A DNA stretch of 64,000 bases from a bacterium (GCA_021796435.1 JAJYXM010000016.1:54625-118624), one strand, 5' to 3'; positions 32,305 through 49,880 are shown, counted from the first letter of the stretch. The notes: a model not told the origin generated them from the sequence alone. Numbers and translations are program-made.

Positions 32305-32574
32305 ATGACCGAATCAACAACAACGCAGTTGAGGGAGAGAGACGCTCAGGCTGCGCCGGCACTTCCGACCGACCTCATCTCTGCAGGAGAAGTGGCAATC
32401 AAGCTCGGCGTCGCGAAGAGCGCCGTGTACGAATGGATCGCTCGTCGCGATATCGCATACCACCGGGTGGGTCGCCTCATCCGGATCCGCGAGGCCGACG
32501 TCGCAGCCTTCCTGAACCGCAACCGCGTGGAGTACAACCCGCGCCGCCGCTATGTCCGCTATCCGGAGGCATGA
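32305..32574 (+). CDS. xis: Excisionase/AlpA-family helix-turn-helix DNA-binding protein
   Basis: Motif ISAGEVAIKLGVAKSAVYEWIARRDIAYHRVGRLIRIREADVAAFL matches the excisionase HTH family. It lies immediately upstream of the integrase and overlaps it. Confidence 0.7.
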   Translation: MTESTTTQLRERDAQAAPALPTDLISAGEVAIKLGVAKSAVYEWIARRDIAYHRVGRLIRIREADVAAFLNRNRVEYNPRRRYVRYPEA

Positions 32575-33667
32575 TCGCTCAGACGAGTGGTGGGTGGACT
32601 TCCGCTTCCAGGGCCAGCGCATCCGCAAGCGTTCTCCGGTCCAGACCAGGCGCGGAGCAGAGCAGTACGAACGCTGTCTGCGAAACGACCTCGTCGCCGA
32701 CGTCGAGGCTGGGCGCGACCCTTTCGCAGGACCGCCACCGACCTTCGCGGAATTCGCGGAGCGGTGGATGCGGGAGTACGTCGAGACGCGGAACAGGCCT
32801 TCCGGTCAACTGGAAAAGCGGAGCCGCCTGAACAACCACATCCTCCCGGCGTTCGGAGCGAGACGCATTGACGAAATCGACCAAGCCTCGATCGACAGCT
32901 TCATCGCGGCAAAGCGCAGGGCGGGCCTCGCGCCCAAGACGGTAAACAACATCCTGACCGTGCTGCGCTGTGCGCTGTCGTCGGCTCACGAATGGGGGAT
33001 CCTCAGAAGCGTTCCGCGCGTCCACTGGCTCGTCGTTCCGGAACGACCCTACGCGTTTCTGGGCGTGCCGGAACTTGAGCAGCTCATCTCCGCAACGCGG
33101 CCGGGTTATTGGCGGGTGTTGATCACGACGATCGCCGGGACGGGCATGCGGTTCGGTGAGGCGGCGGCGCTCCGATGGTCCGACGTCGATCTTGACGGGG
33201 AAGCGCCTGCCGTGACTATCGGGCGATCGCTCATGTGCACCGGCGAAATCGGTCCAACCAAGACGGGCAGACTTCGCCGGGTTCCCCTCCCTGCCCGAAC
33301 ATGCGATGCGCTCCGTACCCTTCCGCAGCATTGCGAGCTCGTGTTCGGGAGGCCCGACGGTCGACCACCACGGCCACAGAACTGCCTGCGCCTCCTCCAC
33401 CGAATCTGCGCGAGGGCGGGCGTCAAGCGTGTCGGGTGGCATGCGCTACGACACTCTTACGCGACGCTGCTCTGCCAGCGTGGCGTTCCGCTTCGGAACG
33501 TCCAGGCTCTGTTGGGCCACACCACGATCATGATGACGAGTCGATATGCTCACGCCAGCGACCAAGACCTGGCGCAGTGGGTTCGTCGGGCAATGACTCC
33601 CGACGCTCCAGGCGCAGATGGTCACCAAGTGGACACCAACGAGCTCGATGCCGGGGACGAGACATGA
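32552..33667 (+). CDS. int: Site-specific tyrosine integrase
   Basis: Catalytic residues present: R...HALRHSYATLL...LGHTTIMMTSRYAH (R-H-R-Y). It lies next to tRNA-Ala. Confidence 0.85.
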   Translation: MSAIRRHDRSDEWWVDFRFQGQRIRKRSPVQTRRGAEQYERCLRNDLVADVEAGRDPFAGPPPTFAEFAERWMREYVETRNRPSGQLEKRSRLNNHILPAFGARRIDEIDQASIDSFIAAKRRAGLAPKTVNNILTVLRCALSSAHEWGILRSVPRVHWLVVPERPYAFLGVPELEQLISATRPGYWRVLITTIAGTGMRFGEAAALRWSDVDLDGEAPAVTIGRSLMCTGEIGPTKTGRLRRVPLPARTCDALRTLPQHCELVFGRPDGRPPRPQNCLRLLHRICARAGVKRVGWHALRHSYATLLCQRGVPLRNVQALLGHTTIMMTSRYAHASDQDLAQWVRRAMTPDAPGADGHQVDTNELDAGDET

Positions 33668-33727: not shown

Positions 33728-33804
33728 TGGTGGACCTTAAGGGATTTGAACCCTTGACCTCTTCCATGCCATGGAAGCGCTCTAGCCAACTGAGCTAAAG
33801 GCCC
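33728..33804 (-). tRNA. tRNA-Ala (anticodon GGC)
   Basis: 77-nt cloverleaf GGGCCTTTAGCTCAGTTGGCTAGAGCGCTTCCATGGCATGGAAGAGGTCAAGGGTTCAAATCCCTTAAGGTCCACCA. G3:U70 Ala identity pair. T-loop TTCAAAT. Encoded CCA. Confidence 0.9.
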
Positions 33805-34026
33805 TTGATATTTAGTTTTCCATACAACTATCAGCCGACCTCCCCGATGTCAATCGGGACACTTTAGCCAACTGAGCTTCCGCCAGAGGTGGATCAGCCT
33901 GTGGCTGAAAAGGCTCTGGTTATGTGGCAGTAGATTGCCACAATAAAATAGGACCGTCAATGACGTAGATTGGGGGTGGGTGCCGTTGACGCTAAGTGCT
34001 GCAACAGGTAGTCTTGATGCACTCAT

Positions 34027-35389: not shown

Positions 35390-36265
35390 ATGACACAAAA
35401 AGTTCGAAAAGCGATCATCCCTGTAGCTGGATTCGGGACAAGGTTCTTGCCGACGACCAAGGCGAGCCCGAAGGAAATGCTGCCGATAATCGATAAACCA
35501 GTCATCCAATATGTGGTCGAGGAGGCTGTCGCTTCCGGGATCACGGATATCATCATCGTCACGAACCAATCCAAGAGGGCGGTTGAGGACCATTTCGACG
35601 ATAATCCTAACTTGGAAGCTTGGCTCAAGAAAACCGGGAAAATCAAGCAACTGGAAGAGGTGCGCGAGATAGGGAGATTGGCGAACTTCATCTATGTCAG
35701 GCAGAAGGGGCCTTATGGAACGGCGACTCCGGTCATGAACGCCAAAAGCCTGATCGGCGACGAACCTTTCGCGGTGCTGTGGGGAGATGAGTTTTTCGTA
35801 GGGAAGAAACCAAGGTTAAAACAGCTGATCGAGATTTACGAAAAATACGGTGATCCCGTCTTGTGCTCGATCCCGGTGGATGACGAGGGGACGAAAAAAT
35901 ATGGCATCATCGATCCGGCTGCGGAGGTCGAGCGGAACGTATATCAGCTGAAGAACGTGATAGAAAAGCCCGGTCCGACGAAGGCGCCTTCGCGTTTGGG
36001 TTCGGTGGGAGGATATATCCTGACGCCGGACATTTTCGAGGATATCGCCAAACTGAAGCGAGGTCATGGCGGGGAGCTGATATTGTTGGATGCGATACAC
36101 GCATTGATGAAGAAACGTCCGATATACGCCAAGCGCATCGAAGGGACGTATTATGACACCGGTTCCAAGATCGGTTGGTTGCGCGCCAACCTGGAATTGG
36201 CCTTAAGCCGGCCAGATTTGGCCAAGGAAACCAAGGCACTCGTTAAAAAGCTCACGACAAGGTAA
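35390..36265 (+). CDS. galU: UTP--glucose-1-phosphate uridylyltransferase GalU
   Basis: Motif KAIIPVAGFGTRFLPTTKASPKEMLPIIDKP. Confidence 0.9.
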   Translation: MTQKVRKAIIPVAGFGTRFLPTTKASPKEMLPIIDKPVIQYVVEEAVASGITDIIIVTNQSKRAVEDHFDDNPNLEAWLKKTGKIKQLEEVREIGRLANFIYVRQKGPYGTATPVMNAKSLIGDEPFAVLWGDEFFVGKKPRLKQLIEIYEKYGDPVLCSIPVDDEGTKKYGIIDPAAEVERNVYQLKNVIEKPGPTKAPSRLGSVGGYILTPDIFEDIAKLKRGHGGELILLDAIHALMKKRPIYAKRIEGTYYDTGSKIGWLRANLELALSRPDLAKETKALVKKLTTR

Positions 36266-36271
36266 AATACA

Positions 36272-37726
36272 GTGGCTATGTTTTTCGACAGCAGAAACAG
36301 ACTTTCAATTTTCAAACGTATTTTTGCCGTACTGGCCATACTCTCCATCGCCGGCGCGGGTTGCACGAAAGGGCCGGATGCCGCCACGGTAGCGGCTTCG
36401 AAGAAGACGACGCTCACCATCTGGGGAGTGGTGGACGATATAGACGTCTATCAGAAGATCCTGAACGACTATCATGTACTGCACCCGTTCGTCGATCTGC
36501 AGTTCCGGAGATTCAGGCTGGAGGAGTATGAGAACGAATTGTTGAACGCGATGGCGGAAGACCGCGGTCCGGACGTGTTCCTGATCCACAACACCTGGGT
36601 CGGCAAATATATGCCGAAGATCCAGGTCATGCCGTTGACGACCAAAGTCGCGGTGCAGGTAGTGCAGGGGACGCTCAAGAAAGAGCTGGTCTATCAGTTG
36701 AATACGGAACAATCCGTGACGATCAAGCAATTCAAGACGGATTATCCGGATGTCGTGGCGCAGGACATGATACGCACGGTCAACGTGTCGACTGTAGCCG
36801 ACAAGAAGGACCTGCAGCAGCGCGTCGTCGCCATACCTTTGTCCGTCGACACCTTGGCTCTCTATGCGAACAAGGATCTTTTGAATGCAGCCGGTATCGC
36901 GACGATTCCGCAGAATTGGGATGATTTCCAGGCGGCGGTCAAGAAACTGGTCAAATTTGATGAGAACGGAGAAATCACCCAGGCGGGTGCGGCCATCGGA
37001 ACAGGGGTGAACGTAGAACGTGCGCCAGATATCCTCGCTGCGCTCATGATGCAGAACGGCACGGAGATGAGCGGGCCTGACGGTACGCCTACATTCGGCC
37101 AGATTCCGGCAGCCTTGAGCGGACAGCGTGAACAACCCCCGGCTTATCAGGCGTTATCCTTCTATACCGATTTCGCTGATCCGACGAAAGAAGTCTATAC
37201 GTGGAACGCCAAGATGCCGAATTCTTTGGACGCTTTTGTGCAGGGCAAGACAGCGTTCTTCTTCGGCTATTCCTATCACCTGCCCACCATCAGGGCATTG
37301 GCGCCTAAGTTGAATCTCGGCATATCGACGTTGCCGCAGATCCAGAACAATCCTGTCGTGAACTTCGCCAACTATTGGGCTTGGACCGTCTCCAAGAAGA
37401 GCAAGAATACGGATTTGGCCTGGAACTTCATCAACTTCATGCGGACGCCGGACGAGTCCAAACTGTTCTTGGACGCTGCCAAACGTCCGGCAGCATTGCG
37501 TTCGCAGCTGGGAACGCAACTTGAGGATGAGGATGTGGGCGTATTCGCTTCGCAGGTCCTGACCGCCAAGTCATGGTATCGAGGGAATGACCCGAAGGCA
37601 GCGGATGATGCGTTGGTCGAACTCATCGATACGGCTATCGGTTTGGATCCGGAGAAATATCCTCAGGCGGTCAATATAGCGGTAGATAAGATTTCCCAGA
37701 CGATTCCCTACGGCGGCATCCAGTAG
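36272..37726 (+). CDS. ABC transporter substrate-binding lipoprotein (family 1, sugar-type). No cognate permease or ATPase in the window.
   Basis: Lipobox LSIAGAGC. SBP_bac_1-like length and composition. Confidence 0.75.
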   Translation: MAMFFDSRNRLSIFKRIFAVLAILSIAGAGCTKGPDAATVAASKKTTLTIWGVVDDIDVYQKILNDYHVLHPFVDLQFRRFRLEEYENELLNAMAEDRGPDVFLIHNTWVGKYMPKIQVMPLTTKVAVQVVQGTLKKELVYQLNTEQSVTIKQFKTDYPDVVAQDMIRTVNVSTVADKKDLQQRVVAIPLSVDTLALYANKDLLNAAGIATIPQNWDDFQAAVKKLVKFDENGEITQAGAAIGTGVNVERAPDILAALMMQNGTEMSGPDGTPTFGQIPAALSGQREQPPAYQALSFYTDFADPTKEVYTWNAKMPNSLDAFVQGKTAFFFGYSYHLPTIRALAPKLNLGISTLPQIQNNPVVNFANYWAWTVSKKSKNTDLAWNFINFMRTPDESKLFLDAAKRPAALRSQLGTQLEDEDVGVFASQVLTAKSWYRGNDPKAADDALVELIDTAIGLDPEKYPQAVNIAVDKISQTIPYGGIQ

Positions 37727-37739
37727 AGATCCATAGACT

Positions 37740-38117
37740 ATGAAATATCCGAAGCAATTGAATTGGCTACTGGCGCTCGGCGCGGCGCTCTTACCCGTGG
37801 CCGCGAATGCGCAGTCGTATTACCAGGAGACTTTGCGCGTAGGAGTGAAACCGTCTTGTTGGTCGGACGGTAACTGTAGCTTGGATGATATAGTCCTGGC
37901 GGGCTCCGCTTTCGCGAATATCCTGATAGAGCTTTCGGCAGCGTTGTTCTTCGCGACCTTCATCTACGGCGGAGCGATGTACATCTTCTCTTTCGGAAAA
38001 TCCGACTGGGTGAAGAAAGGCACGGATGCGATGAAAGGCGGAGCGATCGGCATGCTCATAGTATTGTCGGCTTGGACGATAGTCAGATATCTGGCGACAG
38101 CCATTAAGGGATCATGA
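37740..38117 (+). CDS. Secreted T4SS-pilin-like (TrbC/VirB2-like) small protein, paralog 1 of 6
   Basis: Signal peptide with AxA site, then two hydrophobic helices and the conserved core F(I/V)YGG..Y(M/I)..G....VKK. Confidence 0.6.
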   Translation: MKYPKQLNWLLALGAALLPVAANAQSYYQETLRVGVKPSCWSDGNCSLDDIVLAGSAFANILIELSAALFFATFIYGGAMYIFSFGKSDWVKKGTDAMKGGAIGMLIVLSAWTIVRYLATAIKGS

Positions 38118-38704
38118 ATATGAGGCTAAACTGCAAAAAGAGGGTGTTTTTTTCAGGCGCGATGGCGTTGTCCCTTTCGTTCATCTTGGCGTCCCAGGCC
38201 TTGGCCATGACTTCGGGCGAATGTACCAACCAGACGAATAAAGGCACATGTAAAAATTATTGCGAATCGACGGAAACGCAGATAGGTGATTGCTCGGACA
38301 ATTCCATCGCGACGGTGTGCTGCAGCAACGCGCCAGCGCAACAGGCCGCGACCACTCCGCCAGCGAGTGCGCCGAGCCAAGGCGGATCATCGATGACCCT
38401 GGCGGATCCTTTGCATGGCATAGGCCTATATGGGATCCTGAATCGCGTCATCATCGCGTTCTTGGGGATCATCGGAGCGGTCGCGCTGCTCGTCTTCGTC
38501 TATGCAGGCGTGGTCTATATGACGGCGGGTTCGAGCGATCGCGTAAAAAAGGCCATGGATGCCATGAAGTATGCGATACTAGGGCTGATCATAATCATGA
38601 TGGCATACATAATCACGAATTTCTATTTCAAGGCACTCACGACCGAACCGGTATCTTCGACGCAGGCGCCACAGGCTCAAGTGACGCTGCCCCAAACTCC
38701 GTAA
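38114..38704 (+). CDS. T4SS-pilin-like protein, paralog 2, with an 8-Cys knottin-like insert
   Basis: Core YAGVVYMTAGSSDRVKKAMDAMKYAILGLIIIMMAYIITNF. Insert CTNQTNKGTCKNYCESTETQIGDCSDNSIATVCC. Confidence 0.6.
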   Translation: MNMRLNCKKRVFFSGAMALSLSFILASQALAMTSGECTNQTNKGTCKNYCESTETQIGDCSDNSIATVCCSNAPAQQAATTPPASAPSQGGSSMTLADPLHGIGLYGILNRVIIAFLGIIGAVALLVFVYAGVVYMTAGSSDRVKKAMDAMKYAILGLIIIMMAYIITNFYFKALTTEPVSSTQAPQAQVTLPQTP

Positions 38705-38708
38705 CGAT

Positions 38709-39089
38709 ATGAAACAAAGACCCATCACTAAACTGGCGCCGCTTATCTTGTTGGGCGGTCTGACTGTGCCGTTCATCGCATTAGCGGATGAAGTGACTGA
38801 CGTGCAGAAGAAATATAACCTGGAGGATCCGATGGGAGGCGCGACAGTTCCGCAGATCGTCAGCAGGATAATCCAGCAGGTCTTGCCGGTGGTCGGCGCT
38901 CTGTTCCTGATCATGTTCATCTACGGCGGCGTGTTGTGGATGACGGCGGGCGGAAGCGGGGATAAGGTCAAAAAAGCCACGCAAACCATGATCAATGCCG
39001 CTATCGGCATGGCGATCGTAGTCTTGGCATATTCGATCGTGAATGAAGTCATAGTCCAGCTTGGTTCGATCATGACCGGTTCGGGCTAG
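38709..39089 (+). CDS. T4SS-pilin-like protein, paralog 3
   Basis: Core FIYGGVLWMTAGGSGDKVKKATQTMINAAIGMAIVVLAYSIVN. Confidence 0.6.
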   Translation: MKQRPITKLAPLILLGGLTVPFIALADEVTDVQKKYNLEDPMGGATVPQIVSRIIQQVLPVVGALFLIMFIYGGVLWMTAGGSGDKVKKATQTMINAAIGMAIVVLAYSIVNEVIVQLGSIMTGSG

Positions 39090-39217
39090 TCGGAGTCGAC
39101 CGTCACGCACAGGAACAGGCCCAGAGGCTTGTTTTTTTCTCGACTATTTAGGCAGAATTTGCTATCCTATGCAGGACGCAATAGCGTTATTCTACCAATG
39201 GAAGGAGGTGACATGAC

Positions 39218-39616
39218 ATGAAGCAAAGTATAAAGAAAGTAATGGCATTCGCCGCTACGCTAGGCATAGCATCGGCCATCGCACTGCCTTCCATGGCTTT
39301 GGCGGCAGATGATCTGAACGCCAATGATTTGGGGGTCAACGCCATCCAATCCACGATCAAGTTAGGGTCTGGAGACATCAGACAGACAGCAGCCCGCATC
39401 ATCAACGTAGCCTTGGGTTTCCTCGGCATCATCGCAGTGGTGATAGTGTTGTTGGGAGGTTTCAAATGGATGATCGCCGGCGGAAACGATGAGAAAACCA
39501 ACGAAGCCAAGAAACTTATCGTTTCAGGCATCATCGGTTTGGCAATCATCCTTTCAGCTTGGGCAATCACAAGCTTTGTCATTTCGCGTTTGGTCACCGC
39601 CACACAAGACCAATAG
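39218..39616 (+). CDS. T4SS-pilin-like protein, paralog 4
   Basis: Core LLGGFKWMIAGGNDEKTNEAKKLIVSGIIGLAIILSAWAITSFV. Confidence 0.6.
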   Translation: MKQSIKKVMAFAATLGIASAIALPSMALAADDLNANDLGVNAIQSTIKLGSGDIRQTAARIINVALGFLGIIAVVIVLLGGFKWMIAGGNDEKTNEAKKLIVSGIIGLAIILSAWAITSFVISRLVTATQDQ

Positions 39617-39638
39617 AGTAGGTCGGGGCGAAACTAAA

Positions 39639-40067
39639 ATGTTTATGGATTTAATCAAAAAAATAACTATAGCGGGACTCTCGGCGGTCATGGTCATGCA
39701 AGTCATGGCCTTGCCGGTTTCGGCCCAAGTCACGGGAAAGATCAGTGAAGGGCTGAATAAGGCGGCAGCCGGTGCGTATGGGACCAATCCACAGCCAATC
39801 GAAAGTCTGGTGGGAGGATTGATCAGCGTAGCTTTGGGCATAGTCGGCCTCCTGCTCCTAGGTCTGTTCATCTATGCGGGTTTCAAGTGGATGACGGCTG
39901 GTGGCGATGCTACGAAGATCAAAGAGGCGACAGCGCTCATCCGCAACGCCATCATCGGTCTGGTGATCATCGTTGCAGCTTATGCCATCACGAGCTTCGT
40001 GGTGCAGAGCTTGAGCAATGTGACTACCGGCACGGGTACGCCGCAGCAGACGCAGCAAACGCCATAG
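39639..40067 (+). CDS. T4SS-pilin-like protein, paralog 5. Start set at the internal MFMDLIKK.
   Basis: Core FIYAGFKWMTAGGDATKIKEATALIRNAIIGLVIIVAAYAITSFV. The longer track ORF overlaps paralog 4. Confidence 0.6.
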   Translation: MFMDLIKKITIAGLSAVMVMQVMALPVSAQVTGKISEGLNKAAAGAYGTNPQPIESLVGGLISVALGIVGLLLLGLFIYAGFKWMTAGGDATKIKEATALIRNAIIGLVIIVAAYAITSFVVQSLSNVTTGTGTPQQTQQTP

Positions 40068-40098
40068 TTATCTAAGGAATGACGAAGTAAATCAGCTT

Positions 40099-40476
40099 AT
40101 GAAGCATCTTAAGACAATCGCAGCGAGCGTCGGTGTAGCTTTGGCCACACCATTCGTAGCTTTAGCGACTAATCCCTTCCAATCGGGCCAGCAGATGGTG
40201 TCTGATGTCGGCGGCAAGGCCGGGATATCAGGTGGAGGCGGGTTGACGGACATCATCGGCAACCTCATCAACATCTTCTTGGGTTTCCTCGGTCTCGTGT
40301 TCCTGGTGCTCATGCTCTATGCAGGTTTCCAGTGGATGACGGCCGGCGGCGACGAAGGAAAGGTCAAGAAAGCACGCGAAGTCATCACGCAGGCCATCAT
40401 CGGTCTGATCGTGGTGGTGGCGGCCTACGCCATCTCAAGCTTCGTGCTCGGCTCGCTCTTCAACGCGACACAATAG
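40099..40476 (+). CDS. T4SS-pilin-like protein, paralog 6
   Basis: Core MLYAGFQWMTAGGDEGKVKKAREVITQAIIGLIVVVAAYAISSFV. Confidence 0.6.
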   Translation: MKHLKTIAASVGVALATPFVALATNPFQSGQQMVSDVGGKAGISGGGGLTDIIGNLINIFLGFLGLVFLVLMLYAGFQWMTAGGDEGKVKKAREVITQAIIGLIVVVAAYAISSFVLGSLFNATQ

Positions 40477-40594: not shown

Positions 40595-42241
40595 TTGAGA
40601 CTAGCGAGTTTGAGTTTGCTCCTTACTCCCAGCAATGACACAATGCAGAGGCTTATGACGTCCAAGAGATTCCTGAAGGATTTGTTGGTTTTTGCAGGTC
40701 TTACCTTGTGGTTCGCTGTATTGATCCCTTGGTCGGGTTTTGCTGATCCGGACGCTTTTTATCATGCGAAAGCCTCGAGCCTGGTTTGGCAGAGCGGCGT
40801 TATCAGAGCTTTCCCTTGGTTGGATCTGACGCTTCTGGGAAAGCATTACGCGGATCTGCATTTTCTTTTTCATGTCTTGGTCGCGCCAGCGACTTATCTT
40901 TTCGGGATGTTCGACGGTTTGAGGATTGTGACGATCCTGCTTTCGGTTTTGTTCGTGTTTTCGTTCGCGTATTCATTACGTTGGTTGGGTATCCGATATG
41001 CCTGGTTGTGGGCTGTTTTGTTGGCGATGACGCATCCGCTGGTATTTAGGCTGTTGTTGGGTAAGGCCACGCCATTGGCACTTTTTTTGTTCATCATCGG
41101 TCTGGCTGCGGCGTGGAAAAGAAGGCCGTGGATAGTGTTCGTGTTGACGGCGATATATGCCTTATCGCATGGCGGATGGTTGTACTTGGCAGGGTCAGTG
41201 ACTTTGCTGGCGGTGGGTGACGCGATTTTCGATCGAGTAGTTTTTGGTAAAGAGTGGAAAGAAACTTTGCGATCTTCGATGTGGAAAGAAGCTCTGCTCG
41301 CATATGCGGGCGGGCTGGCGGGTCTGTTTATTCATCCTAATTTCCCTGAAGTTTTTTTGTTCGCTAGGACGCAGATATTCACCATCGGCATAGGCACTCC
41401 ATGGCAACATGTGGTGTTGGGGAGCGAGTGGTTGCCGCCGGAAATACCGAAGCTGGTGGCTTCCTTGGGGATCTGGATAATAGCCCTGATCGGTGGGTTC
41501 AGTGCTTTGCTTCTGGCGCCCTCGAAGGATTTGGATAAGAAAAAAGCCTCATTCGTCGTTTCATTGGGTCTGATCGTTGCGGTATTGCTGGCTTTGACGC
41601 TGAAGAGCCGGAGGAACCTGGAATTTTTGGTACCGGTACTTGCCTTGTGGGCGGCGACCATCTGGAGCTGTACAGACGCGAAGAGGTTCATGCTGGATAT
41701 GTTCGATAACTTGAAAAAGCTGGGAAAAGTTTATGCAAGGATTATCTTGGGCATAACAGCCCTAAGCTTGACTGCTTTGATAGGCAAGAACGTGTTGACG
41801 ATTTGGGATGATTTCCATCCAGTGGCATATCCGGATAATGTCTATGCCGCAACGATGCAGGCTATTTCGGAAAGAGCTAAGCCAGGCGAAAGGGTCTTCC
41901 ATACGAGTTGGGACGAGTTTCCCATGCTTTTCGCATCGGATGATCGGTTGAGATATGTCTCTGGATTGGATCCGACTTTTTTGTACGTCGCTTCTTCGAC
42001 TTTGTCGGATGATGTGAAGGATCTGACTTGGGATTTTTCCGGTGTCAGCTCGACAAGAGAGCAGGCATGGGAGCTTATCCATGATCGTCTGGACTCGAAG
42101 TTTGTTTTTGCCAGCAAGCGGAACCATCAACATTTCATCAGTTTGATCGAATCAGACGAAAGATATGAGTTTTTGGCCGAAGACGAGAAAAGCGTGGTTT
42201 TTCGGGTAAAAATAGAATTACGAATGCCAAATGTCAAATGA
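40595..42241 (+). CDS. Polytopic membrane protein, putative GT-C fold glycosyltransferase (PMT/ArnT/YfhO-like)
   Basis: At least 10 predicted TM helices. N-terminal loop motif FADPDAFYHAK. Confidence 0.55.
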   Translation: MRLASLSLLLTPSNDTMQRLMTSKRFLKDLLVFAGLTLWFAVLIPWSGFADPDAFYHAKASSLVWQSGVIRAFPWLDLTLLGKHYADLHFLFHVLVAPATYLFGMFDGLRIVTILLSVLFVFSFAYSLRWLGIRYAWLWAVLLAMTHPLVFRLLLGKATPLALFLFIIGLAAAWKRRPWIVFVLTAIYALSHGGWLYLAGSVTLLAVGDAIFDRVVFGKEWKETLRSSMWKEALLAYAGGLAGLFIHPNFPEVFLFARTQIFTIGIGTPWQHVVLGSEWLPPEIPKLVASLGIWIIALIGGFSALLLAPSKDLDKKKASFVVSLGLIVAVLLALTLKSRRNLEFLVPVLALWAATIWSCTDAKRFMLDMFDNLKKLGKVYARIILGITALSLTALIGKNVLTIWDDFHPVAYPDNVYAATMQAISERAKPGERVFHTSWDEFPMLFASDDRLRYVSGLDPTFLYVASSTLSDDVKDLTWDFSGVSSTREQAWELIHDRLDSKFVFASKRNHQHFISLIESDERYEFLAEDEKSVVFRVKIELRMPNVK

Positions 42242-42553: not shown

Positions 42554-43579
42554 ATGGCAGACGACGACGAAGACGATGATTTCGACGAGGATGACGATGA
42601 CAGCAGTTTCGTCTCGTCGGATGACGACGATGACGATGACACGGACGACGGTGACGCCCCGCGGGGCAGGAGAAGAGACATGGCTGATACGAGATCTCGC
42701 GGTGGGCGACGTGGCGGCGGCAGTGGCAGGGAGATCGATATCTCTTCTGACCCTGCTTACGTTTGGAGGTTGATCGGGATGATGGTGTCCAGCTTCGCTA
42801 ACGATGTTGGCAAGATGGGCTACAAGCTTCCACCAGTCACTTTAGCTCTGGGTGCGATTCAGACCGTGCTCGGTCCGCAGCTCACTAGCTTCGGGATCAA
42901 TGCCCTTGCGGCGGCGATCCAGAATCCGGAGATCGTGAAGCGCTGGGTGCGGGCGCTGGGCTGGCCGGAGCAGATCAACGCTCTGGGCGACGAGTTCATC
43001 GACGATTTCTTTGAGGGGTTGCGGATGGCATTGCGTGACGACAAGGTCGACGTCAATGCCGCACAGGGTGCCCTCAAAGCAGCGTCGAGCAAACTTCTCG
43101 GGAAGGCTGACAGACTGGCCGTCAAGAGCGTAGAGGACGCATATCTCATGCTCGACGAAGCTGAACAGCTATACTATGAGGCTATGCTACTCGGCTTCAG
43201 TGCAGACGAGCGTAAGACGTTCGATTTGTACACGTCGAAGTTGGCCAATGTGGTGGCGCTGAAGGCTTTGGTGCGTAGGCTGGAAAATGCTGCTGCCATT
43301 GCGACGGCGGCTGCTGTTCTGGGGGAAGACGTGGCGACCACAGTGGGTCGAGTTCAGATGGCATGCAAAACCGCTGCACTTGCCTACCTCCAACGTATCT
43401 ACGGGGAGGTGAAGCCGTCGGACAAGAAGAAGGAGAGCTTCCTTAGCAAGGCGAGAGCCGTGCTCGGAGAGGCGGACAAGGCCATCGTGGATGCCATCAA
43501 GCCGGACGTCGGGCCTGACCCGGTCGTCGACGCGCTGGATGCATTCACGGCGCGGCTTCGTCGCAAGCGAGGCCAGTAG
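42554..43579 (+). CDS. Hypothetical protein with a poly-acidic N-terminus
   Basis: AAGGAG RBS before ATG 42554 (MADDDEDDDFDEDDDD...). The earlier in-frame ATG of the track ORF lies in promoter sequence. Confidence 0.55.
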   Translation: MADDDEDDDFDEDDDDSSFVSSDDDDDDDTDDGDAPRGRRRDMADTRSRGGRRGGGSGREIDISSDPAYVWRLIGMMVSSFANDVGKMGYKLPPVTLALGAIQTVLGPQLTSFGINALAAAIQNPEIVKRWVRALGWPEQINALGDEFIDDFFEGLRMALRDDKVDVNAAQGALKAASSKLLGKADRLAVKSVEDAYLMLDEAEQLYYEAMLLGFSADERKTFDLYTSKLANVVALKALVRRLENAAAIATAAAVLGEDVATTVGRVQMACKTAALAYLQRIYGEVKPSDKKKESFLSKARAVLGEADKAIVDAIKPDVGPDPVVDALDAFTARLRRKRGQ

Positions 43580-43676
43580 TACCAAGCGGACGGAGCGCGA
43601 TGGTCAGTAAGACGTCGCGCGAAGTCCAAGTCACAAGCTCATGCGGACCTGCGCAAGCGGGTCGGGAGAATCTCAA

Positions 43677-45758
43677 ATGATGTTCGTAGCGTCGATTCTG
43701 GTCGTTTCGTTGGTCGCTATCGGCGGCATCCTGTACGCGATTCACGCGGGACAGGGCGCACGCCTCGTGGCTGGCTGGAGGATGTTCACTGGCGTAGGCC
43801 AGGCGCTCGCCAGCGCGGCAAGCCGCTTCTGGTACGGGGATGTCATCCCGTTCTTCCAGCGCCTGCGGCTCGCGGTCGTGGCGGTGCTCGTGCTCGGAGG
43901 CCTCGTGTCCTTCTTCTTCACAGGGAAGCAGTTGGTCATGTCGGCGAGTGCGCGGAGCGGTCTGATCCAGGCGACCGAGGTTCCGTGGTGGACAGGACTT
44001 ATCATCCTGGCCGTCGCGGGCATCGGTGCCTTCGCGGTCTGGTTCTTCGCCAGGCCGCAGCCTGAACAGCGCGGCAAAGTGCAGATCCCGGCTGGTGCGA
44101 CGAACTTGGTGGTGCCCTTCAACATGATTGGGCAGCCTCCGGTCATCGCGGTCCAGCCGTACGATCCGGCACAGGAGTTCGTGGTGGAAGACATCACGGA
44201 TCAGGACTTCACCATCGAGATTCCTGCAGCCCTGCCTGCTCCCGCCATCTTCAACTGGATGGTCAGGGAGAGGCCGGATCACAGCCCGGTCGTCAACGTC
44301 GGCTTGACCACGATCGGTGCCTTGCTCGCGCTTGGTGCGACGTATTTCATCGTCGGCATGACGTTCGAGTCGCGCCTCTACGTGCTGATGAGCATCCCGT
44401 TCGTGGTGATGGCTCTCACGATCGTGTTCCGCGCCTGGCAGCTAGCTGTGAAGTTGGCGGCCTGGACGGCGGATGCGGTCGAAGCTGGGCCGAACGGCGT
44501 CATCAACCTCAGCAAGCTGGGCATCCGCCTCATCGCGGCCCTGTTCACCAAGAACTGGGCCAAGGTCGAGGAGATCTTCAAGCCGGCTGACAGCACGACG
44601 CAGGCCGTCTCGTACGTCAACCAGGAGCAGTGGGAGCGGAACCGGCGGCGCGCGGTGTTCACCACCGTGGCTGGACTGGTCTTCATCTACTCGCTGTGCT
44701 TGCTGGTGCCGACGTGGAGCTGGTTCATCGCGGCGGTCGTAATTCAGCTCCTGACCACTGCCGCTCGGTACGTCATGAGTTGGACCTATGCGACGGAGTG
44801 GAGTTTCTACCAGGAGAATCGCAACCGGCTACGCCACTTCATCGCGACCACCAAAGAGCGCAGCGCCTACGCGTATTACATCGTGGTCGCAGTGCTCGCG
44901 GCGATGACAACCGTGGTCATCCTGGTGCCCGGCGCGGATGAGCGGTTCCAGGCTCTTCGCGAAGCCCTTGCCCTGCTGCTCAACAACAGCACGGACGCGG
45001 CTACCGGCAGCATCCTCATGGGGATGGCGTACTTGGTGGGTATCGTTCTCACCTCGATCGTCATCTTCGCGCTTTGGCCGCGACGGCGTGGGGAGCAGGT
45101 CGTGCACGACGAAAACGGCACGGCCATCACCTTCCCGGCGAGCGAGCCTGCCTTCCCTCGGATGCGCAAGCTCGTCGCAGCGCCGTTCGCGATCATTCTC
45201 CTGGCCTGCGTGGCCGGGTTCGTCTGGACGCTGGTTCAGGGAACGGTGATGGAAGCCTCGGCGAGCATGCTCTCGAGGTTCATCCCTACCGCTTCTGCGA
45301 CCGCGTCACCGGGAGTGCATCTTGGTTGGCCGTCTGTTCCTGGTGCGACGGGCTACGTCATCGAGCGGCGCGAGCTGCACGAGCCGGCGTACTCGACGCT
45401 CAACGAAAACGGGACTGCCGAGGGTGCGTGGATCGCTGGCGCGCCGAGTGCTCCGCGGGTGTTCGTCAAAGGCACCACGGAGTACGAGGACAAGGCCAAT
45501 GTGGTCCGCGGGTCGAAGTATTTCTACCGGATCATCGCGTTGGGCGCAGGCGCTGGTGGCAGAGATGTCATCAGCACCGAGACCAGCGTGGTGGTGCCGG
45601 CAGCGGCCCCTACTCCCCCTACCCCGACGCGGCCTGCGACGGGCGGTGGCACTCCGCACCGCATCCGCACGGCTTGCAGCACGGGCGACTGTGACTCTAG
45701 CGACCCCAACCCCGGACTGACGGCGTACTGTTCGCGTCATCCGGAAGACTGTCGCTAG
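43677..45758 (+). CDS. Polytopic membrane protein with a C-terminal fibronectin type III domain
   Basis: Multiple TM helices. FN3-like PGATGYVIERRELHEPAYSTL...KYFYRIIALG. Start set at MMFVASIL behind a GGGAGA RBS. Confidence 0.6.
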   Translation: MMFVASILVVSLVAIGGILYAIHAGQGARLVAGWRMFTGVGQALASAASRFWYGDVIPFFQRLRLAVVAVLVLGGLVSFFFTGKQLVMSASARSGLIQATEVPWWTGLIILAVAGIGAFAVWFFARPQPEQRGKVQIPAGATNLVVPFNMIGQPPVIAVQPYDPAQEFVVEDITDQDFTIEIPAALPAPAIFNWMVRERPDHSPVVNVGLTTIGALLALGATYFIVGMTFESRLYVLMSIPFVVMALTIVFRAWQLAVKLAAWTADAVEAGPNGVINLSKLGIRLIAALFTKNWAKVEEIFKPADSTTQAVSYVNQEQWERNRRRAVFTTVAGLVFIYSLCLLVPTWSWFIAAVVIQLLTTAARYVMSWTYATEWSFYQENRNRLRHFIATTKERSAYAYYIVVAVLAAMTTVVILVPGADERFQALREALALLLNNSTDAATGSILMGMAYLVGIVLTSIVIFALWPRRRGEQVVHDENGTAITFPASEPAFPRMRKLVAAPFAIILLACVAGFVWTLVQGTVMEASASMLSRFIPTASATASPGVHLGWPSVPGATGYVIERRELHEPAYSTLNENGTAEGAWIAGAPSAPRVFVKGTTEYEDKANVVRGSKYFYRIIALGAGAGGRDVISTETSVVVPAAAPTPPTPTRPATGGGTPHRIRTACSTGDCDSSDPNPGLTAYCSRHPEDCR

Positions 45759-45917
45759 TGTGTTCCTTAGGGGCAAGCGCAATGCTTGCCTCAGGCGCTC
45801 GTTCGAGCGCCACTTCCTGAAGACGGTCATGCAATTCCTCGCATGGCCGTTTTTTCGATTGAATTTTTATGGTTTCAGTCCCTGCCAAGTAAAATGCGAG
45901 ACTGAATCTAGGGTACT

Positions 45918-45946
45918 GAGATCCCGGGTCTATGCCCGGGATGACA
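45918..45946. repeat. REP-like hairpin repeat, family member A1 (GAGATCCCGGGTCTATGCCCGGGATGACA)
   Basis: Palindromic stem ATCCCGGG / CCCGGGAT with a 6-nt loop. Confidence 0.65.
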
Positions 45947-45969
45947 GCTGCGGAAGCACCGTAGGATTA

Positions 45970-45999
45970 TTGACAAAAAGGCATGAAAAGTGTATAAAG
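45970..45999 (+). promoter_or_regulatory. Near-consensus sigma70 promoter, copy 2 of 3. -35 TTGACA, 18-bp spacer, -10 TATAAA.
   Basis: ATTGACAAAAAGGCATGAAAAGTGTATAAAGG, upstream of the 46036 gene. Confidence 0.6.
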
Positions 46000-46035
46000 G
46001 CTAATCCTGTTGAACCTACGGAAAGGAAGGATGCC

Positions 46036-46419
46036 ATGAAGTTTTTTGCACTTTGCATCGTCACGTTGGCGCTCGCCATCGTCGGATGCCACAACAGCAA
46101 TACGGACACGACGCCGACCAAGGAGCAGTCCAACAGCCTCACGGTCTACCCTGGCGGGCAGTCGGTGCAGAGTACGGAAACGCTCGGTATGTCCGACTAC
46201 GAGCTCTGCATGCGGCAGAATCGTGGGATGCCGACGGCCGCGGATTTCTGCACGCAGCAGATCCAGGCCAGAGCGCCGGGCCAGATGCCGAGGTACCCAT
46301 ACGGCTATGGGTATGGCTACAGCTACGGCGGGTACGGCATGCCGCTGAATCCTGGCTACATGCAGATGCCTGGGTGCGTGCGACGCGTGCAGACAGCGAC
46401 GGGCGTGTACTGCTACTAG
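46036..46419 (+). CDS. Small secreted lipoprotein, Gly/Tyr-rich C-terminus
   Basis: GGAAGGAAGG RBS. Signal peptide MKFFALCIVTLALAIVGC. Confidence 0.5.
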   Translation: MKFFALCIVTLALAIVGCHNSNTDTTPTKEQSNSLTVYPGGQSVQSTETLGMSDYELCMRQNRGMPTAADFCTQQIQARAPGQMPRYPYGYGYGYSYGGYGMPLNPGYMQMPGCVRRVQTATGVYCY

Positions 46420-46456
46420 GCGCGTTGAATCGCGCCACCCCTCCACCAAGACGGTC

Positions 46457-46492
46457 TTGAAACGGCCGTCTTTCCTTTTGGCTAAAAATGCA
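46457..46492 (+). terminator. Rho-independent terminator after the 46036 gene
   Basis: Hairpin AAGACGGTCTTGAAACGGCCGTCTT followed by TCCTTTTGG. Confidence 0.5.
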
Positions 46493-46500
46493 CTTTTTTA

Positions 46501-46575
46501 CGTCATCCCGGCCGAGCAGAAACGAGAGCCGGGATCTAAGGGCCATGAGATCCCGGGTCTGTGCCCGGGATGACG
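46501..46575. repeat. Double-hairpin REP-like element A2 (CGTCATCCCGG...CCGGGAT, spacer, GATCCCGGGTCTGTGCCCGGGATGACG)
   Basis: Two adjacent palindromic hairpins. The outer ends GTCATCC and GGATGAC are inverted. Confidence 0.65.
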
Positions 46576-46649
46576 AAAAATGATGATGAGATAAGGGCAA
46601 AAATGTAGTTTTTTTCTTATTTTAGCTAATATTTTTGCCAATCATACAC

Positions 46650-46678
46650 TTGACAAAAAGGGTAATTTGTGTTATATT
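46650..46678 (+). promoter_or_regulatory. Near-consensus sigma70 promoter, copy 3 of 3. -35 TTGACA, 17-bp spacer, -10 TATATT.
   Basis: CTTGACAAAAAGGGTAATTTGTGTTATATTTGTTTGTTC. Confidence 0.6.
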
Positions 46679-46756
46679 TGTTTGTTCTTTGGACAAGTGT
46701 GTCATCAGCCTGATTGAGGAAAAACAACGATTTTTTCACTCCCTTGGTAAATTTTC

Positions 46757-46810
46757 TGTCATCCCGCACTTGATGCGGGATCTAGATCCCGGGTCTGTGC
46801 CCGGGATGAC
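46757..46810. repeat. Double-hairpin REP-like element A3 (TGTCATCCCGCACTTGATGCGGGATCTAGATCCCGGGTCTGTGCCCGGGATGAC)
   Basis: Same architecture as A2. It sits in the 5' leader of the 46909 gene. Confidence 0.65.
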
Positions 46811-46908
46811 AAAGAAGGGTACGAGGTGACAAAGGAGGTTGGTTTCCTGGATCGGGTTGGTGACACTCAGATGGAACAAATTTTTCCGCCACAGGCGGAG
46901 GAGGATTC

Positions 46909-47468: not shown

Positions 47469-47474
47469 GCGGCG

Positions 47475-49790: not shown

Positions 49791-49880
<90 letters not shown>

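What the first reader, a model, noticed from the sequence alone, without database searches (positions are those of the whole stretch)
37740..40476. Six tandem paralogous secreted T4SS-pilin-like (TrbC/VirB2-like) genes with no secretion apparatus in the window
Six consecutive genes of about 125-195 aa each encode a signal peptide with an AxA cleavage site. A conserved two-helix core follows (F/L-I/L-YAG-F-x-WMTAGG-D/S-x-x-K-V/I-K-K-A-x-x-x-I-x-x-A-I-I-G-L-x-I-V-x-A-A-Y-A-I-T-S-F-V). This pattern resembles conjugative T4SS pilins of monoderm and candidate-phyla bacteria. The array sits between housekeeping genes (galU, an ABC substrate-binding protein, a GT-C membrane protein). No VirB4, VirB6 or VirD4 gene is nearby. 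A six-fold pilin array suggests antigenic or functional diversification of a surface filament, possibly linked to episymbiosis or DNA uptake.
Basis: partly seen in the sequence, partly recalled or inferred. Interest (0 to 1): 0.7.

Follow-up and report, generated by a model that had tools for sequence, protein, structure and literature searches.

The report
Six-gene pilin-like array in Patescibacteria
Six neighbouring genes in an ultra-small (Patescibacteria/CPR) bacterium encode divergent copies of a conjugation-type pilin, a gene array already described for this phylum in 2023-2025; what is new is its fixed link to a sugar-binding lipoprotein and a protein-glycosylating-type enzyme instead of a secretion machine.

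Summary
Six consecutive + strand genes (37740-40476) all match Pfam PF18895 (T4SS_pilin) above the curated cut-off. Each has a Sec signal peptide with an AxA site and a two-helix hairpin with a basic loop.

The kind is already published. Tandem arrays of 2-11 VirB2-like pilin genes, about 25% identical, were catalogued in 383 Patescibacteria assemblies (PMC12102498). A six-gene array is essential in Southlakia epibionticum (PMC10633639).

What I add:
- 76 of 80 related loci carry arrays of 4-13 genes, most often six.
- The six paralogs are old positional orthologs under purifying selection. This argues against antigenic variation and for a fixed mixed-subunit set. Gene 4 is the best major-subunit candidate.
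- No VirB4/VirD4-sized ATPase lies within 10 kb of any of the 80 arrays.
- Instead the arrays travel with galU, an orphan sugar-type substrate-binding (SBP) lipoprotein (directly upstream in 42 loci) and an unannotated GT-C enzyme whose model resembles STT3/AglB oligosaccharyltransferases.
- The pilin next to that enzyme carries a conserved C-terminal N-x-S/T sequon (15/25 arrays against 17/139 other pilins).

Verdict: a new member of a known kind. The possible pilin N-glycosylation and SBP link is an untested lead.

The parts
35390..36265 (+). galU-type UTP-glucose-1-phosphate uridylyltransferase (NTP_transferase). It is a recurrent upstream neighbour of the array.
   Evidence: Pfam PF00483, E 7e-30. 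The same cluster occurs in 34 of 80 related loci.
36272..37726 (+). Sugar-type extracellular solute-binding protein (SBP_bac_1). It is a predicted lipoprotein (…IAGAGC). It ends 13 nt before pilin 1 and is 'orphan': no ABC permease or ATPase lies nearby.
   Evidence: PF01547, E 1e-26. The closest PDB sequences are sugar, trehalose/maltose and sulfoquinovosyl-glycerol SBPs, E 1e-11. It lies directly upstream of the array in 42 loci and within the flank in 47-48. A conserved G-x-G-C motif follows the signal region, and no Walker-A+LSGGQ ORF occurs in any of the 80 loci.
37740..38117 (+). Pilin-like paralog 1 (125 aa). Signal peptide …VAANA|Q, small C-x5-C loop with an N-C-S sequon, and a two-helix core.
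   Evidence: PF18895, 28.6 bits against a cut-off of 26.6. Positional ortholog in first array position in 23 of 24 tabulated loci. 79% aa identity to L003.
38114..38704 (+). Pilin-like paralog 2 (196 aa). It has a six-Cys module (with an N-Q-T sequon) between the signal peptide and the core, and an S/T/P/Q-rich C-terminal tail. It is the fastest-evolving member.
   Evidence: PF18895, 48.6 bits. Weak beta-defensin-like hit PF13841, E 0.0016, below cut-off. 59% aa identity to L003, dN 0.34.
38709..39089 (+). Pilin-like paralog 3 (126 aa).
   Evidence: PF18895, 38.1 bits. Best sub-threshold TrbC/VirB2 hit (PF04956): 19.8 bits against 27.9, covering profile positions 14-97 of 98. dN/dS 0.14.
39218..39616 (+). 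Pilin-like paralog 4 (132 aa). It is the most conserved member and the candidate major subunit. It is preceded by the only long spacer in the array (128 nt) and by the only canonical Shine-Dalgarno sequence (GGAAGGAGGTGA).
   Evidence: PF18895, 42.7 bits. 97% aa identity to L003 and 81-90% to L004-L008. dN/dS 0.064, with dS 0.34 against more than 1 for most neighbouring genes (0.71 for pilin 6). Spacer and RBS.
39639..40067 (+). Pilin-like paralog 5 (142 aa). It has an N-V-T sequon just after helix 2 and a T/G/P/Q-rich tail.
   Evidence: PF18895, 35.8 bits. NF045849, 40.9 bits against a cut-off of 40. Start confirmed by the independent gene call in L001.
40099..40476 (+). Pilin-like paralog 6 (125 aa). 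It ends in S-L-F-N-A-T-Q. This C-terminal sequon is conserved in the ortholog family.
   Evidence: PF18895, 40.5 bits. NF045849, 40.2 bits. AF2 model: helices 48-80 and 86-124, with most of the hairpin above pLDDT 90. N122 is present in 45 of 46 homologs and S/T at +2 in 41 of 46.
40655..42241 (+). 528-aa polytopic membrane protein with a GT-C glycosyltransferase fold, closest to STT3/AglB/PglB oligosaccharyltransferases. No Pfam or NCBIfam family covers it.
42554..45758 (+). Two conserved downstream genes of unknown function: a 341-351 aa protein with an acidic N-terminus, and a 693-705 aa polytopic membrane protein. Whether they belong to the module is uncertain.
   Evidence: Syntenic in L003 and L005-L007 only. 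No Pfam or NCBIfam hits.

Best explanation
The locus is a chromosomal, vertically inherited operon of a Patescibacteria (Uhrbacteria/Magasanikbacteria-like) bacterium. Its gene order is galU, sugar-type SBP lipoprotein, six VirB2/TrbC-like pilin paralogs (PF18895), then an STT3/AglB-like GT-C enzyme.

Proposed mechanism:
1. Each pilin is exported by Sec and cut after an AxA site.
2. It inserts as a two-helix hairpin with both termini outside and a basic loop inside.
3. The six are non-redundant subunits of one mixed assembly. Gene 4 is the likely major subunit; the others are accessory or decorated subunits.
4. Most likely this assembly is the pilus-like filament of the Patescibacteria chromosomal type IV secretion system. 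That system is essential for epibiotic growth in Southlakia epibionticum.
5. The ATPase and channel genes (VirB4, VirB6, VirB3) would be encoded elsewhere in the 1.52-Mb contig.
6. The adjacent GT-C enzyme probably glycosylates the exposed C-terminal N-x-S/T tail of the neighbouring pilin (gene 6, perhaps gene 5). GalU would supply UDP-glucose for the lipid-linked donor.
7. The SBP lipoprotein is a conserved partner of unknown role, possibly glycan binding at the host interface.

Shown here: family membership, topology features, conservation, synteny, the GT-C fold and the sequon association.
Inferred: filament formation, use of a distant T4SS, glycosylation and the SBP role.
For: - All six genes pass PF18895. 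Close homologs are named 'pilin' or 'MMCAP2_0565 family pilin-like conjugal transfer protein' by NCBI.
- Signal peptide, hairpin and basic loop are present.
- Published precedent exists: 441 arrays of 2-11 VirB2-like genes at about 25% identity in Patescibacteria; the pilin gene lies near virB4 in only 1135 of 1948 assemblies that have both (PMC12102498). A six-gene pilin array is essential in S. epibionticum (PMC10633639; PMC12857230).
- 76 of 80 related loci have 4-13 tandem copies, most often six.
- Positional orthology holds for each paralog, and dN/dS is 0.06-0.26.
- Gene 4 stands out: 97% identity to L003, low dS, the only strong SD sequence, and a 128-nt spacer upstream.
- Synteny with SBP, galU and GT-C is recurrent.
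- The GT-C/OST-like fold is well supported.
- The pilin adjacent to the GT-C gene has a tail sequon in 15 of 25 arrays, against 17 of 139 other pilins in the same arrays (Fisher p = 9e-7). This holds even where the GT-C gene lies upstream, as in L027 and L074.
- The sequon is conserved in 39-41 of 46 gene-6 homologs.
Against: - No VirB4/VirD4-sized Walker-A protein lies within 10 kb of any of the 80 arrays. No T4SS core gene occurs in the native part of the window. The link to a T4SS therefore rests on homology and on Saccharimonadia precedent. I could not search the rest of the genome.
- TrbC/VirB2 (PF04956) hits are below the cut-off.
- The structure search of the pilin model was non-specific; the best hits were generic helical hairpins at E > 0.8. 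The PDB sequence search found nothing.
- Family members exist with large Cys-rich ectodomains on both sides of the hairpin. Others are single chains of 2-17 hairpins. Both are awkward for a classical VirB2 filament.
- Sequons are not enriched across all 511 pilin tails (19.4% against 20.6% after shuffling).
- The sequon test is not corrected for phylogeny.
- N122 lies only a few residues after helix 2, which may be too close to the membrane for an oligosaccharyltransferase.
Confidence: 0.6

Rival explanations
1. T4SS-independent envelope module. The six hairpin proteins, together with the SBP lipoprotein and the GT-C enzyme, form a membrane-embedded or surface assembly that needs no VirB4 machine. 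It could be a fixed hetero-oligomeric ring or tube, or a hairpin anchor for displayed domains. It would serve glycan capture or uptake, or cell-surface architecture.
For: - No VirB4/VirD4-like ATPase lies near any of the 80 arrays.
- The SBP is directly upstream in 42 loci, with a median gap of about 10 nt, and no ABC transporter genes are nearby.
- Glycosylation genes are constant companions: galU, GT2, GT-C, DUF2079.
- The modal array size of six is matched by single polypeptides with six hairpin repeats (P0241-P0243).
- Some members carry large Cys-rich ectodomains.
Against: - There is clear homology to pilin-like conjugal transfer proteins (PF18895, NF045849).
- In S. epibionticum the equivalent array lies inside the T4SS cluster and is essential along with it.
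- In 1135 of 1948 assemblies a pilin gene lies near virB4.
- No known machine of this kind exists.
Confidence: 0.2
2. Antigenic or host-range variation array, part of the first reader's reading. Under this idea the tandem copies are interchangeable variants, diversified to evade recognition or to match different hosts, as proposed for the VirB2 paralogs of Bartonella and Anaplasma.
For: The paralogs are highly divergent (18-43%). Genes 1-3 evolve faster and carry variable extracellular segments. PMC12102498 raises this idea.
Against: - One-to-one positional orthologs persist across genomes.
- Selection is purifying wherever dS could be estimated.
- Paralogs share too little DNA identity for recent gene conversion; the only cross-match is 72.7% over 161 nt between genes 5 and 6.
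- No invertible promoter was found, and no repeats flank the genes.
Confidence: 0.05
3. Pilins of an integrated conjugative element. Under this idea the array is cargo of a mobile element and serves DNA transfer, like the Mycoplasma ICE protein Mbov_0395.
For: There is an NF045849 match. An integrase, a Replic_Relax protein and a T4CP-like ATPase lie 4-10 kb upstream.
Against: - Those mobile-element genes sit in a 64% GC element inserted beside tRNA-Ala. Relatives L003 and L005 lack it yet keep the same pilin operon.
- The operon is syntenic with ychF and galU across genera.
- Most Patescibacteria T4SS clusters lack relaxases.
Confidence: 0.03
4. Type IV pilus or competence pseudopilins for DNA uptake.
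For: Patescibacteria do use type IV pili for competence.
Against: - The signal peptides are Sec type with AxA sites, not class III G|F-T-L-I-E prepilin leaders.
- There are two transmembrane helices rather than one.
- No PilB, PilC or ComG neighbours occur.
Confidence: 0.02

Closest known systems
Patescibacteria VirB2-like pilin arrays (Quiñonero-Coronel et al. 2025, PMC12102498; six-gene essential array of Southlakia epibionticum ML1, Wang et al. 2023, PMC10633639; 'Sec secreted array' of TM7x)
   Same: The family is the same (PF18895), and the genes are tandem, with six here. Paralog identity is low, about 25% on average. The proteins are Sec-type secreted two-helix proteins. The genes are chromosomal and have no relaxase.
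   Different: - In S. epibionticum the array is inside the T4SS cluster. Here, and in all 80 related loci examined, it is more than 10 kb from any VirB4-like gene.
- It is embedded instead between an SBP lipoprotein/galU and an OST-like GT-C gene.
- Neither PMC12102498 (term search) nor the passages of PMC10633639 returned by my term search mention these neighbours. Neither was seen to report positional orthology or the C-terminal sequon.
- The lineage here is Uhrbacteria/Magasanikbacteria-like (class ABY1, from memory), whereas the paper found arrays most abundant in Microgenomatia and Saccharimonadia.
VirB2/TrbC/TraA conjugative pilins of diderm T4SS (PF04956; T-pilus, F-pilus)
   Same: These are small proteins with a long Sec signal peptide and two hydrophobic helices joined by a short basic loop. 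Both termini are predicted to face outside.
   Different: - Only sub-threshold sequence similarity exists (PF04956 at most 19.8 bits against 27.9).
- The organism is a monoderm.
- Six paralogs replace a single major pilin.
- There is no adjacent virB3 or virB4.
- Some relatives carry large ectodomains or are concatenated.
- Filament formation is unproven.
Mbov_0395 / MMCAP2_0565 pilin-like conjugal transfer protein of Mycoplasma ICEs (NCBIfam NF045849)
   Same: Genes 5 and 6 reach the curated cut-off, and genes 2-4 hit below it. The hairpin core is the same.
   Different: The Mycoplasma proteins are single genes on a mobile ICE with a full conjugation module. Here there is a six-gene chromosomal operon with no ICE genes.
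STT3/AglB/PglB oligosaccharyltransferases (for the downstream 528-aa gene)

Membership tests
Pfam PF18895 T4SS_pilin | Score at or above the curated gathering threshold (26.6 bits) | tested here: met
   The six genes score 28.6, 48.6, 38.1, 42.7, 35.8 and 40.5 bits. Precomputed PF18895 hits are recorded on all listed homologs.
Pfam PF04956 TrbC/VirB2 pilin | Score at or above the gathering threshold (27.9 bits) | tested here: not met
   The best scores are 19.8 bits (gene 3) and 15.4 bits (gene 2); the other genes have no hit. One homolog (P0203) carries a precomputed PF04956 hit.
NCBIfam NF045849 Mbov_0395 pilin-like conjugal transfer protein | Score at or above the cut-off of 40 bits | tested here: inconclusive
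   Genes 5 (40.9) and 6 (40.2) pass. Genes 2 and 4 score 34.9 and gene 3 scores 24.8. Gene 1 has no hit.
VirB2-type T4SS pilin (functional class) | Sec signal peptide cleaved by signal peptidase I, then two hydrophobic helices joined by a short polar or basic loop | tested here: met
   Sequence inspection and hydropathy, the alignment, and the AF2 hairpin with helices 48-80 and 86-124. Cleavage itself was not tested.
VirB2-type T4SS pilin (functional class) | Encoded with, or dependent on, VirB4, VirB3 and VirB6 | tested here: not met
   None was found in the window's native part. None lies within 10 kb of any of the 80 related arrays. The rest of the genome could not be searched.
VirB2-type T4SS pilin (functional class) | Fold match to solved conjugative pilins (TraA, VirB2) | tested here: inconclusive
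   Foldseek against PDB gave only generic helical hairpins at E of at least 0.8. The profile search of PDB sequences found nothing.
VirB2-type T4SS pilin (functional class) | Polymerises into an extracellular, lipid-containing filament | not testable with these tools
   This needs cryo-EM, cryo-ET or biochemistry.
Patescibacteria VirB2 array (PMC12102498) | 2-11 pilin genes in tandem, or separated by one gene, with low mutual identity (mean about 25%, maximum 54%) | tested here: met
   Six genes with gaps of -4 to 128 nt and identity of 18-43%.
Type IV pilin / competence pseudopilin | Class III signal peptide (G|F/M-x-x-x-E) and a single N-terminal hydrophobic helix | tested here: not met
   The leaders have AxA sites, and two transmembrane helices lie near the C-terminus.
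STT3/AglB/PglB oligosaccharyltransferase (downstream gene) | GT-C membrane fold plus a C-terminal globular domain of the AglB type | tested here: met
STT3/AglB/PglB oligosaccharyltransferase (downstream gene) | Catalytic motifs: acidic D-x-D in external loop 1, and WWDYG in the C-terminal domain | tested here: inconclusive
   D31-P-D33 is invariant, and W419-D-E-F-P is conserved in place of WWDYG. No residue-level structural alignment was available. The motif definitions are from memory.
STT3/AglB/PglB oligosaccharyltransferase (downstream gene) | Transfers glycan to Asn of N-x-S/T in a secreted acceptor | not testable with these tools
   Only indirect support exists: the conserved sequon on the adjacent pilin.

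The most novel reading that the evidence does not exclude
The operon of SBP lipoprotein, six pilin-like hairpins and OST-like enzyme could be a self-contained, glycosylated envelope device of ABY1/Paceibacteria-type CPR bacteria. In this reading it works without a VirB4 machine. VirB2-like hairpins would form a fixed six-part hetero-oligomer, mirrored by natural six-repeat fusion proteins. One subunit would be N-glycosylated by an AglB-like oligosaccharyltransferase. The orphan sugar-binding lipoprotein would couple the assembly to capture of host-derived glycans.

A weaker version is also open. The proteins could be true T4SS pilins, but with N-linked glycosylation by an archaeal-type OST. 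That would be a new occurrence of AglB/STT3-type protein N-glycosylation in bacteria.
Probability: 0.2. Interest if true: 0.8.

Novelty: new member of a known kind. Interest (0 to 1): 0.4.

Why it matters
The role of the Patescibacteria T4SS and its pilin arrays is an open question. They are essential in the one species tested, but the substrate and structure are unknown.

This locus adds no new kind of element. The comparative results do sharpen the question in three ways:
- The six paralogs are a conserved, non-interchangeable set. That favours a mixed-subunit structure over antigenic variation.
- In a large CPR clade the array is genetically uncoupled from the T4SS core. It is coupled instead to an orphan sugar-binding lipoprotein and to an unannotated AglB/STT3-like enzyme.
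- One specific paralog carries a conserved N-x-S/T tail.

If pilin N-glycosylation by this enzyme were confirmed, it would extend OST-type N-glycosylation to CPR bacteria. It would also give a concrete biochemical handle, with a defined enzyme, acceptor and sequon, on an uncultivated group.

Tried and rejected
- **First genome scan.** The six-paralog alignment A1 had no block conserved enough for the search for related loci. I repeated the scan with genes 4-6.
- **Pilin fold.** Foldseek of the pilin model against PDB gave only generic hairpins. The profile search of PDB sequences gave nothing. The VirB2 fold is therefore neither confirmed nor refuted.
- **General sequon enrichment.** Tail sequons across all 511 pilin ORFs showed none, 19.4% against 20.6% after shuffling. 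'Any sequon in the array' against GT-C presence was not significant, p = 0.62. Only the adjacency-specific test is significant.
- **T4SS ATPases near the arrays.** The only Walker-A proteins of at least 450 aa were DnaA, FtsH and the window's STAND NTPase.
- **Downstream conserved genes.** The proteins of 351, 705, 219, 209 and 257 aa have no Pfam or NCBIfam hits.
- **Cluster c32_461.** It is not related to the GT-C protein.
- **Promoter and terminator scan.** The operon showed nothing above the shuffled expectation.
- **Left boundary of the high-GC element.** No second att-like copy of the tRNA was found in bases 1-34200. The exact rpoD-like protein is not on record elsewhere.
- **VirB4 in the same genome.** I could not look for it.
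- **Literature.** Searches for Patescibacteria with oligosaccharyltransferase, or for N-glycosylation with pilin, found nothing relevant.


Full report

Yes. Six ORFs lie head-to-tail on the + strand:
- 37740-38117
- 38114-38704
- 38709-39089
- 39218-39616
- 39639-40067
- 40099-40476

The fifth gene's true start is 39639, at MFMDL. The longer ORF from 39489 overlaps gene 4, and an independent gene call on an identical contig uses 39639.

All six score above the curated Pfam threshold for PF18895 'Type IV secretion system pilin', with 28.6-48.6 bits against 26.6. Genes 5 and 6 also reach the NCBIfam cut-off for NF045849, 'Mbov_0395 family pilin-like conjugal transfer protein'. The classical TrbC/VirB2 model PF04956 is hit only below threshold, at most 19.8 bits against 27.9.

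Each protein has a basic N-terminus, an h-region and an A/V-x-A site. After a variable spacer come two hydrophobic helices joined by a G-G-x-x-x-K-V-K-K loop. An AlphaFold2 model of gene 6 gives a confident hairpin, with helices 48-80 and 86-124 and most of the hairpin above pLDDT 90. The paralogs share only 18-43% identity.

**2. Whose genome is it?**

The closest relatives of the pilins are in Patescibacteria MAGs labelled Uhrbacteria, Magasanikbacteria, Falkowbacteria and 'Patescibacteria group'. The best match is an 87%-identical gene on a 1.24-Mb contig, JAVHLR010000001.1. The window's own proteins are on record on a 1,522,766-bp contig.

The segment from ychF (34 kb) to about 49.5 kb is syntenic with that relative at 65-86% DNA identity.

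**3. It is a known kind of feature.**

Quiñonero-Coronel et al. 2025 (PMC12102498) searched 3,035 Patescibacteria genomes with PF18895 and PF04956, among other profiles. Their results:
- 441 arrays of 2-11 VirB2-like genes were found in 383 assemblies.
- Mean identity within arrays was 25% and the maximum was 54%.
- A pilin gene lay near virB4 in only 1135 of 1948 assemblies that had both.

Wang et al. 2023 (PMC10633639) showed that a series of predicted pilins inside the T4SS cluster of Southlakia epibionticum is essential. A 2025 review describes that array as six structurally conserved, sequence-divergent VirB2-like pilins (PMC12857230). NCBI already names close homologs 'pilin'.

The profile of this family matches 76,242 cluster representatives at E ≤ 1e-3 among 1.84 billion. 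A six-gene array away from virB4 is therefore not a surprise in itself.

**4. What the comparison adds.**

*(a) Arrays are the rule in this clade.* Of the 80 related loci from GTDB genomes, 76 carry 4-13 tandem pilin-like ORFs, with a mode of six.

*(b) The paralogs are positional orthologs.* Window genes 1, 2, 3, 4 and 6 find their best match at the same array position in relatives. Gene 4 is 81-97% identical across L003-L008 and still 45-68% in most of the more distant arrays, with two outliers at about 40%.

Against L003, amino-acid identity is 79, 59, 72, 97, 82 and 87% for genes 1-6. Where dS could be estimated, dN/dS is 0.06-0.26.

This pattern is an old duplication in which every copy is retained and constrained. 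It fits non-redundant subunits of one structure and argues against antigenic variation.

Gene 4 stands out in three ways, so I propose it, by inference, as the major subunit:
- It has the lowest dN and dS.
- It has the only canonical Shine-Dalgarno sequence, GGAAGGAGGTGA.
- It has the only long upstream spacer, 128 nt.

*(c) No secretion machine is nearby, anywhere.* Among all ORFs within 10 kb of the 80 arrays, the only Walker-A proteins of at least 450 aa are DnaA, FtsH and the window's STAND NTPase. Recurrent neighbours carry no T4SS domain.

*(d) The neighbours are conserved.*
- A sugar-type SBP_bac_1 protein lies directly upstream in 42 loci, with a median gap of about 10 nt. It is present in the flank of 47-48 loci.
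- galU is present in 33-34 loci.
- The SBP is closest to trehalose/maltose and other sugar-binding proteins.
- Most of the SBP orthologs whose N-terminus is clearly called carry a conserved G-x-G-C lipobox-like motif.
- The SBP is orphan: no ABC ATPase signature (Walker A plus LSGGQ) occurs in any of the 80 loci.

A second context, with no SBP directly upstream of the array, has the gene order PBP1A, GT2, a 461-aa protein or a methyltransferase, then a 527-aa membrane protein. This block is transcribed divergently from the array.

*(e) The downstream 528-aa membrane protein.* It lies at 40655-42241 and has no Pfam, NCBIfam or PDB sequence match. It models at pLDDT 95.9 as a GT-C glycosyltransferase.
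- The top 15 Foldseek hits are all STT3, AglB or PglB oligosaccharyltransferases, with E 6e-10 to 2e-6.
- D31-P-D33 is invariant in 52 homologs, and a W-D-E-F-P motif is conserved in the C-terminal globular domain, the domain that carries WWDYG in STT3/AglB (that comparison is from memory).
- The 527-aa protein of the second context is a distant homolog (hhalign probability 88%, E 3e-6 over 451 columns), sharing the DPD, HGG, EWLP and KSRR motifs.
- In all, 33 of 80 loci have a GT-C-like gene beside or near the array.

*(f) A sequon on the neighbouring pilin.*
- Gene 6 ends in S-L-F-N-A-T-Q. In 46 homologs the Asn is present in 45, and Ser/Thr at +2 in 41.
- Gene 5 has N-V-T just after helix 2.
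- Across arrays, the pilin next to the GT-C gene has a tail N-x-S/T in 15 of 25 cases, against 17 of 139 for the other pilins in the same arrays (Fisher p = 9e-7).
- This includes two loci where the enzyme gene is upstream and the first pilin carries the sequon.

Caveats:
- The test is not phylogenetically corrected.
- Sequons are not enriched in pilin tails overall.
- The Asn sits close to the membrane.

**5. Most likely mechanism.**

Shown:
- six Sec-exported hairpin proteins of the VirB2-like family PF18895;
- a conserved operon with an SBP lipoprotein, GalU and an OST-like GT-C enzyme.

Inferred:
- The six proteins form one mixed assembly, with gene 4 as the major subunit. This is most probably the pilus-like filament of the chromosomal Patescibacteria T4SS encoded elsewhere.
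- Gene 6, and perhaps gene 5, is glycosylated at its exposed C-terminus.
- The SBP may act at the host interface.

I give this 0.6 overall. The glycosylation step alone is about 0.35.

The main rival, at 0.2, is a T4SS-independent envelope device built from the same hairpins. Three observations support it:
- the complete lack of T4SS linkage in this clade;
- natural single-chain proteins with 2-17 hairpin repeats, including several with exactly six;
- relatives in which the hairpin is flanked on both sides by large Cys-rich ectodomains.

**6. One correction to 'no VirD4 nearby'.**

The left 33.7 kb of the window is 61-67% GC, against about 53% for the pilin region.
- Next to tRNA-Ala (33728-33804, minus strand) lies a tyrosine integrase (32552-33667).
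- Further left lie a Replic_Relax protein (29297-30649), a small TraD/VirD4-like ATPase (28191-29309; TraG-D_C E 1e-6), RadC and a PD-(D/E)XK nuclease.
- Relatives L003 and L005 have the same tRNA-Ala and ychF but no such element.

This coupling-protein-like gene therefore belongs to an inserted mobile element, not to the pilin operon.

Further left lie a 654-aa RpoD with a non-essential region, MopE-repeat proteins, a histone-deacetylase-family gene and a TPP riboswitch with thi4. This content looks like the chromosome of a high-GC bacterium.

One independent assembly spans the integrase, tRNA and ychF junction (L083). Another breaks at the tRNA (L084). I could not decide between a very large island and an assembly chimera.

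**7. Verdict.**

The finding is confirmed, and its family assignment is right. It is a new member of a kind described in 2023-2025, so the headline is not novel. The antigenic-variation and DNA-uptake ideas are not supported.

The added value is threefold: the conserved partnership of SBP, pilins and OST-like enzyme; the positional orthology; and the sequon. Together they make a concrete, testable hypothesis. Interest is 0.4.

Noticed in passing
window 1-33700: This region is 61-67% GC, against about 53% for the rest of the window. An integrase (32552-33667) abuts tRNA-Ala (33728-33804, minus strand). Further left lie a Replic_Relax protein, a small TraD/VirD4-like ATPase, RadC and a PD-(D/E)XK nuclease (25.7-30.6 kb). 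Beyond those lie a second integrase (8669-9883), a 654-aa RpoD with a non-essential region, MopE-repeat proteins (11879-13642 and 17274-21545) and a histone-deacetylase-family gene. Relatives L003 and L005 lack all of this. One independent assembly spans the junction (L083) and another breaks at the tRNA (L084). It is either a very large high-GC island or an assembly chimera; this is unresolved.
   Followed up: partly
window 33805-33925: The window has a roughly 115-nt insertion between tRNA-Ala and ychF, relative to L003 and L005. It contains a 17-nt near-copy (33862-33878) of the tRNA segment 33780-33796.
   Followed up: partly
window 38200-38330 (gene 2, residues 37-70): A six-cysteine module (C-x8-C-x3-C-x9-C-x8-CC) lies between the signal peptide and the pilin core. 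It gives weak beta-defensin-like Pfam hits below the cut-off. Relatives carry similar C…CC modules at the C-terminus of array members, or much larger Cys-rich ectodomains on both sides of the hairpin (for example L034, L018, L058; proteins up to 773 aa).
   Followed up: partly
proteins P0241-P0243, P0250, P0269 (search of cluster representatives): Many database proteins are single polypeptides with 2-17 tandem copies of the pilin-like hairpin behind one signal peptide. Examples are 552 aa with six copies, 820 aa with eight and 1775 aa with seventeen. These are natural 'poly-pilins'. Several have exactly six repeats, matching the modal array size.
   Followed up: partly
window 39090-39217 and gene 4 (39218-39616): This is the only long intergenic spacer in the array, and it precedes the only perfect Shine-Dalgarno sequence (GGAAGGAGGTGA). 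Gene 4 also has unusually low synonymous divergence from L003, with dS 0.34 against more than 1 for most neighbouring genes (0.71 for gene 6). It may be an internal promoter with high expression, or another constraint on the DNA or RNA.
   Followed up: partly
window 36272-37726 and 47 orthologs in related loci: The sugar-type SBP has an unusual conserved lipobox-like G-x-G-C. It is orphan: no ABC ATPase signature ORF occurs within 10 kb in any of the 80 loci. Even so, its stop codon lies about 10 nt before the first pilin gene.
   Followed up: yes
window 49788-54295: tRNA-Ser(CGA) lies at 49788-49877. It is followed by a 40% GC segment (50-54 kb) that encodes a 1354-aa protein with an N-terminal STAND/AAA-type NTPase (weak nSTAND3, NPHP3_N and AAA_22 hits). 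This is probably a horizontally acquired defence-type gene.
   Followed up: no
window 3416-3515 (minus strand): A TPP riboswitch (Rfam RF00059, 70 bits) lies directly upstream of a Thi4-family gene (2580-3413, minus strand) in the high-GC part of the window.
   Followed up: no
window 58833-61788 (minus strand): A Wzy_C (O-antigen-ligase-like) gene and a Polysacc_synt flippase gene lie here. The same two clusters recur 4-7 kb downstream of the pilin arrays in 10-11 related loci, adding to the glycan-related neighbourhood.
   Followed up: partly
window 42554-48376: A run of conserved genes with no family match lies here. It includes an acidic-N-terminus protein, a 693-705-aa polytopic membrane protein with a beta-rich C-terminus, and three small Cys-containing secreted or lipoprotein-like proteins. 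All are syntenic with L003.
   Followed up: partly
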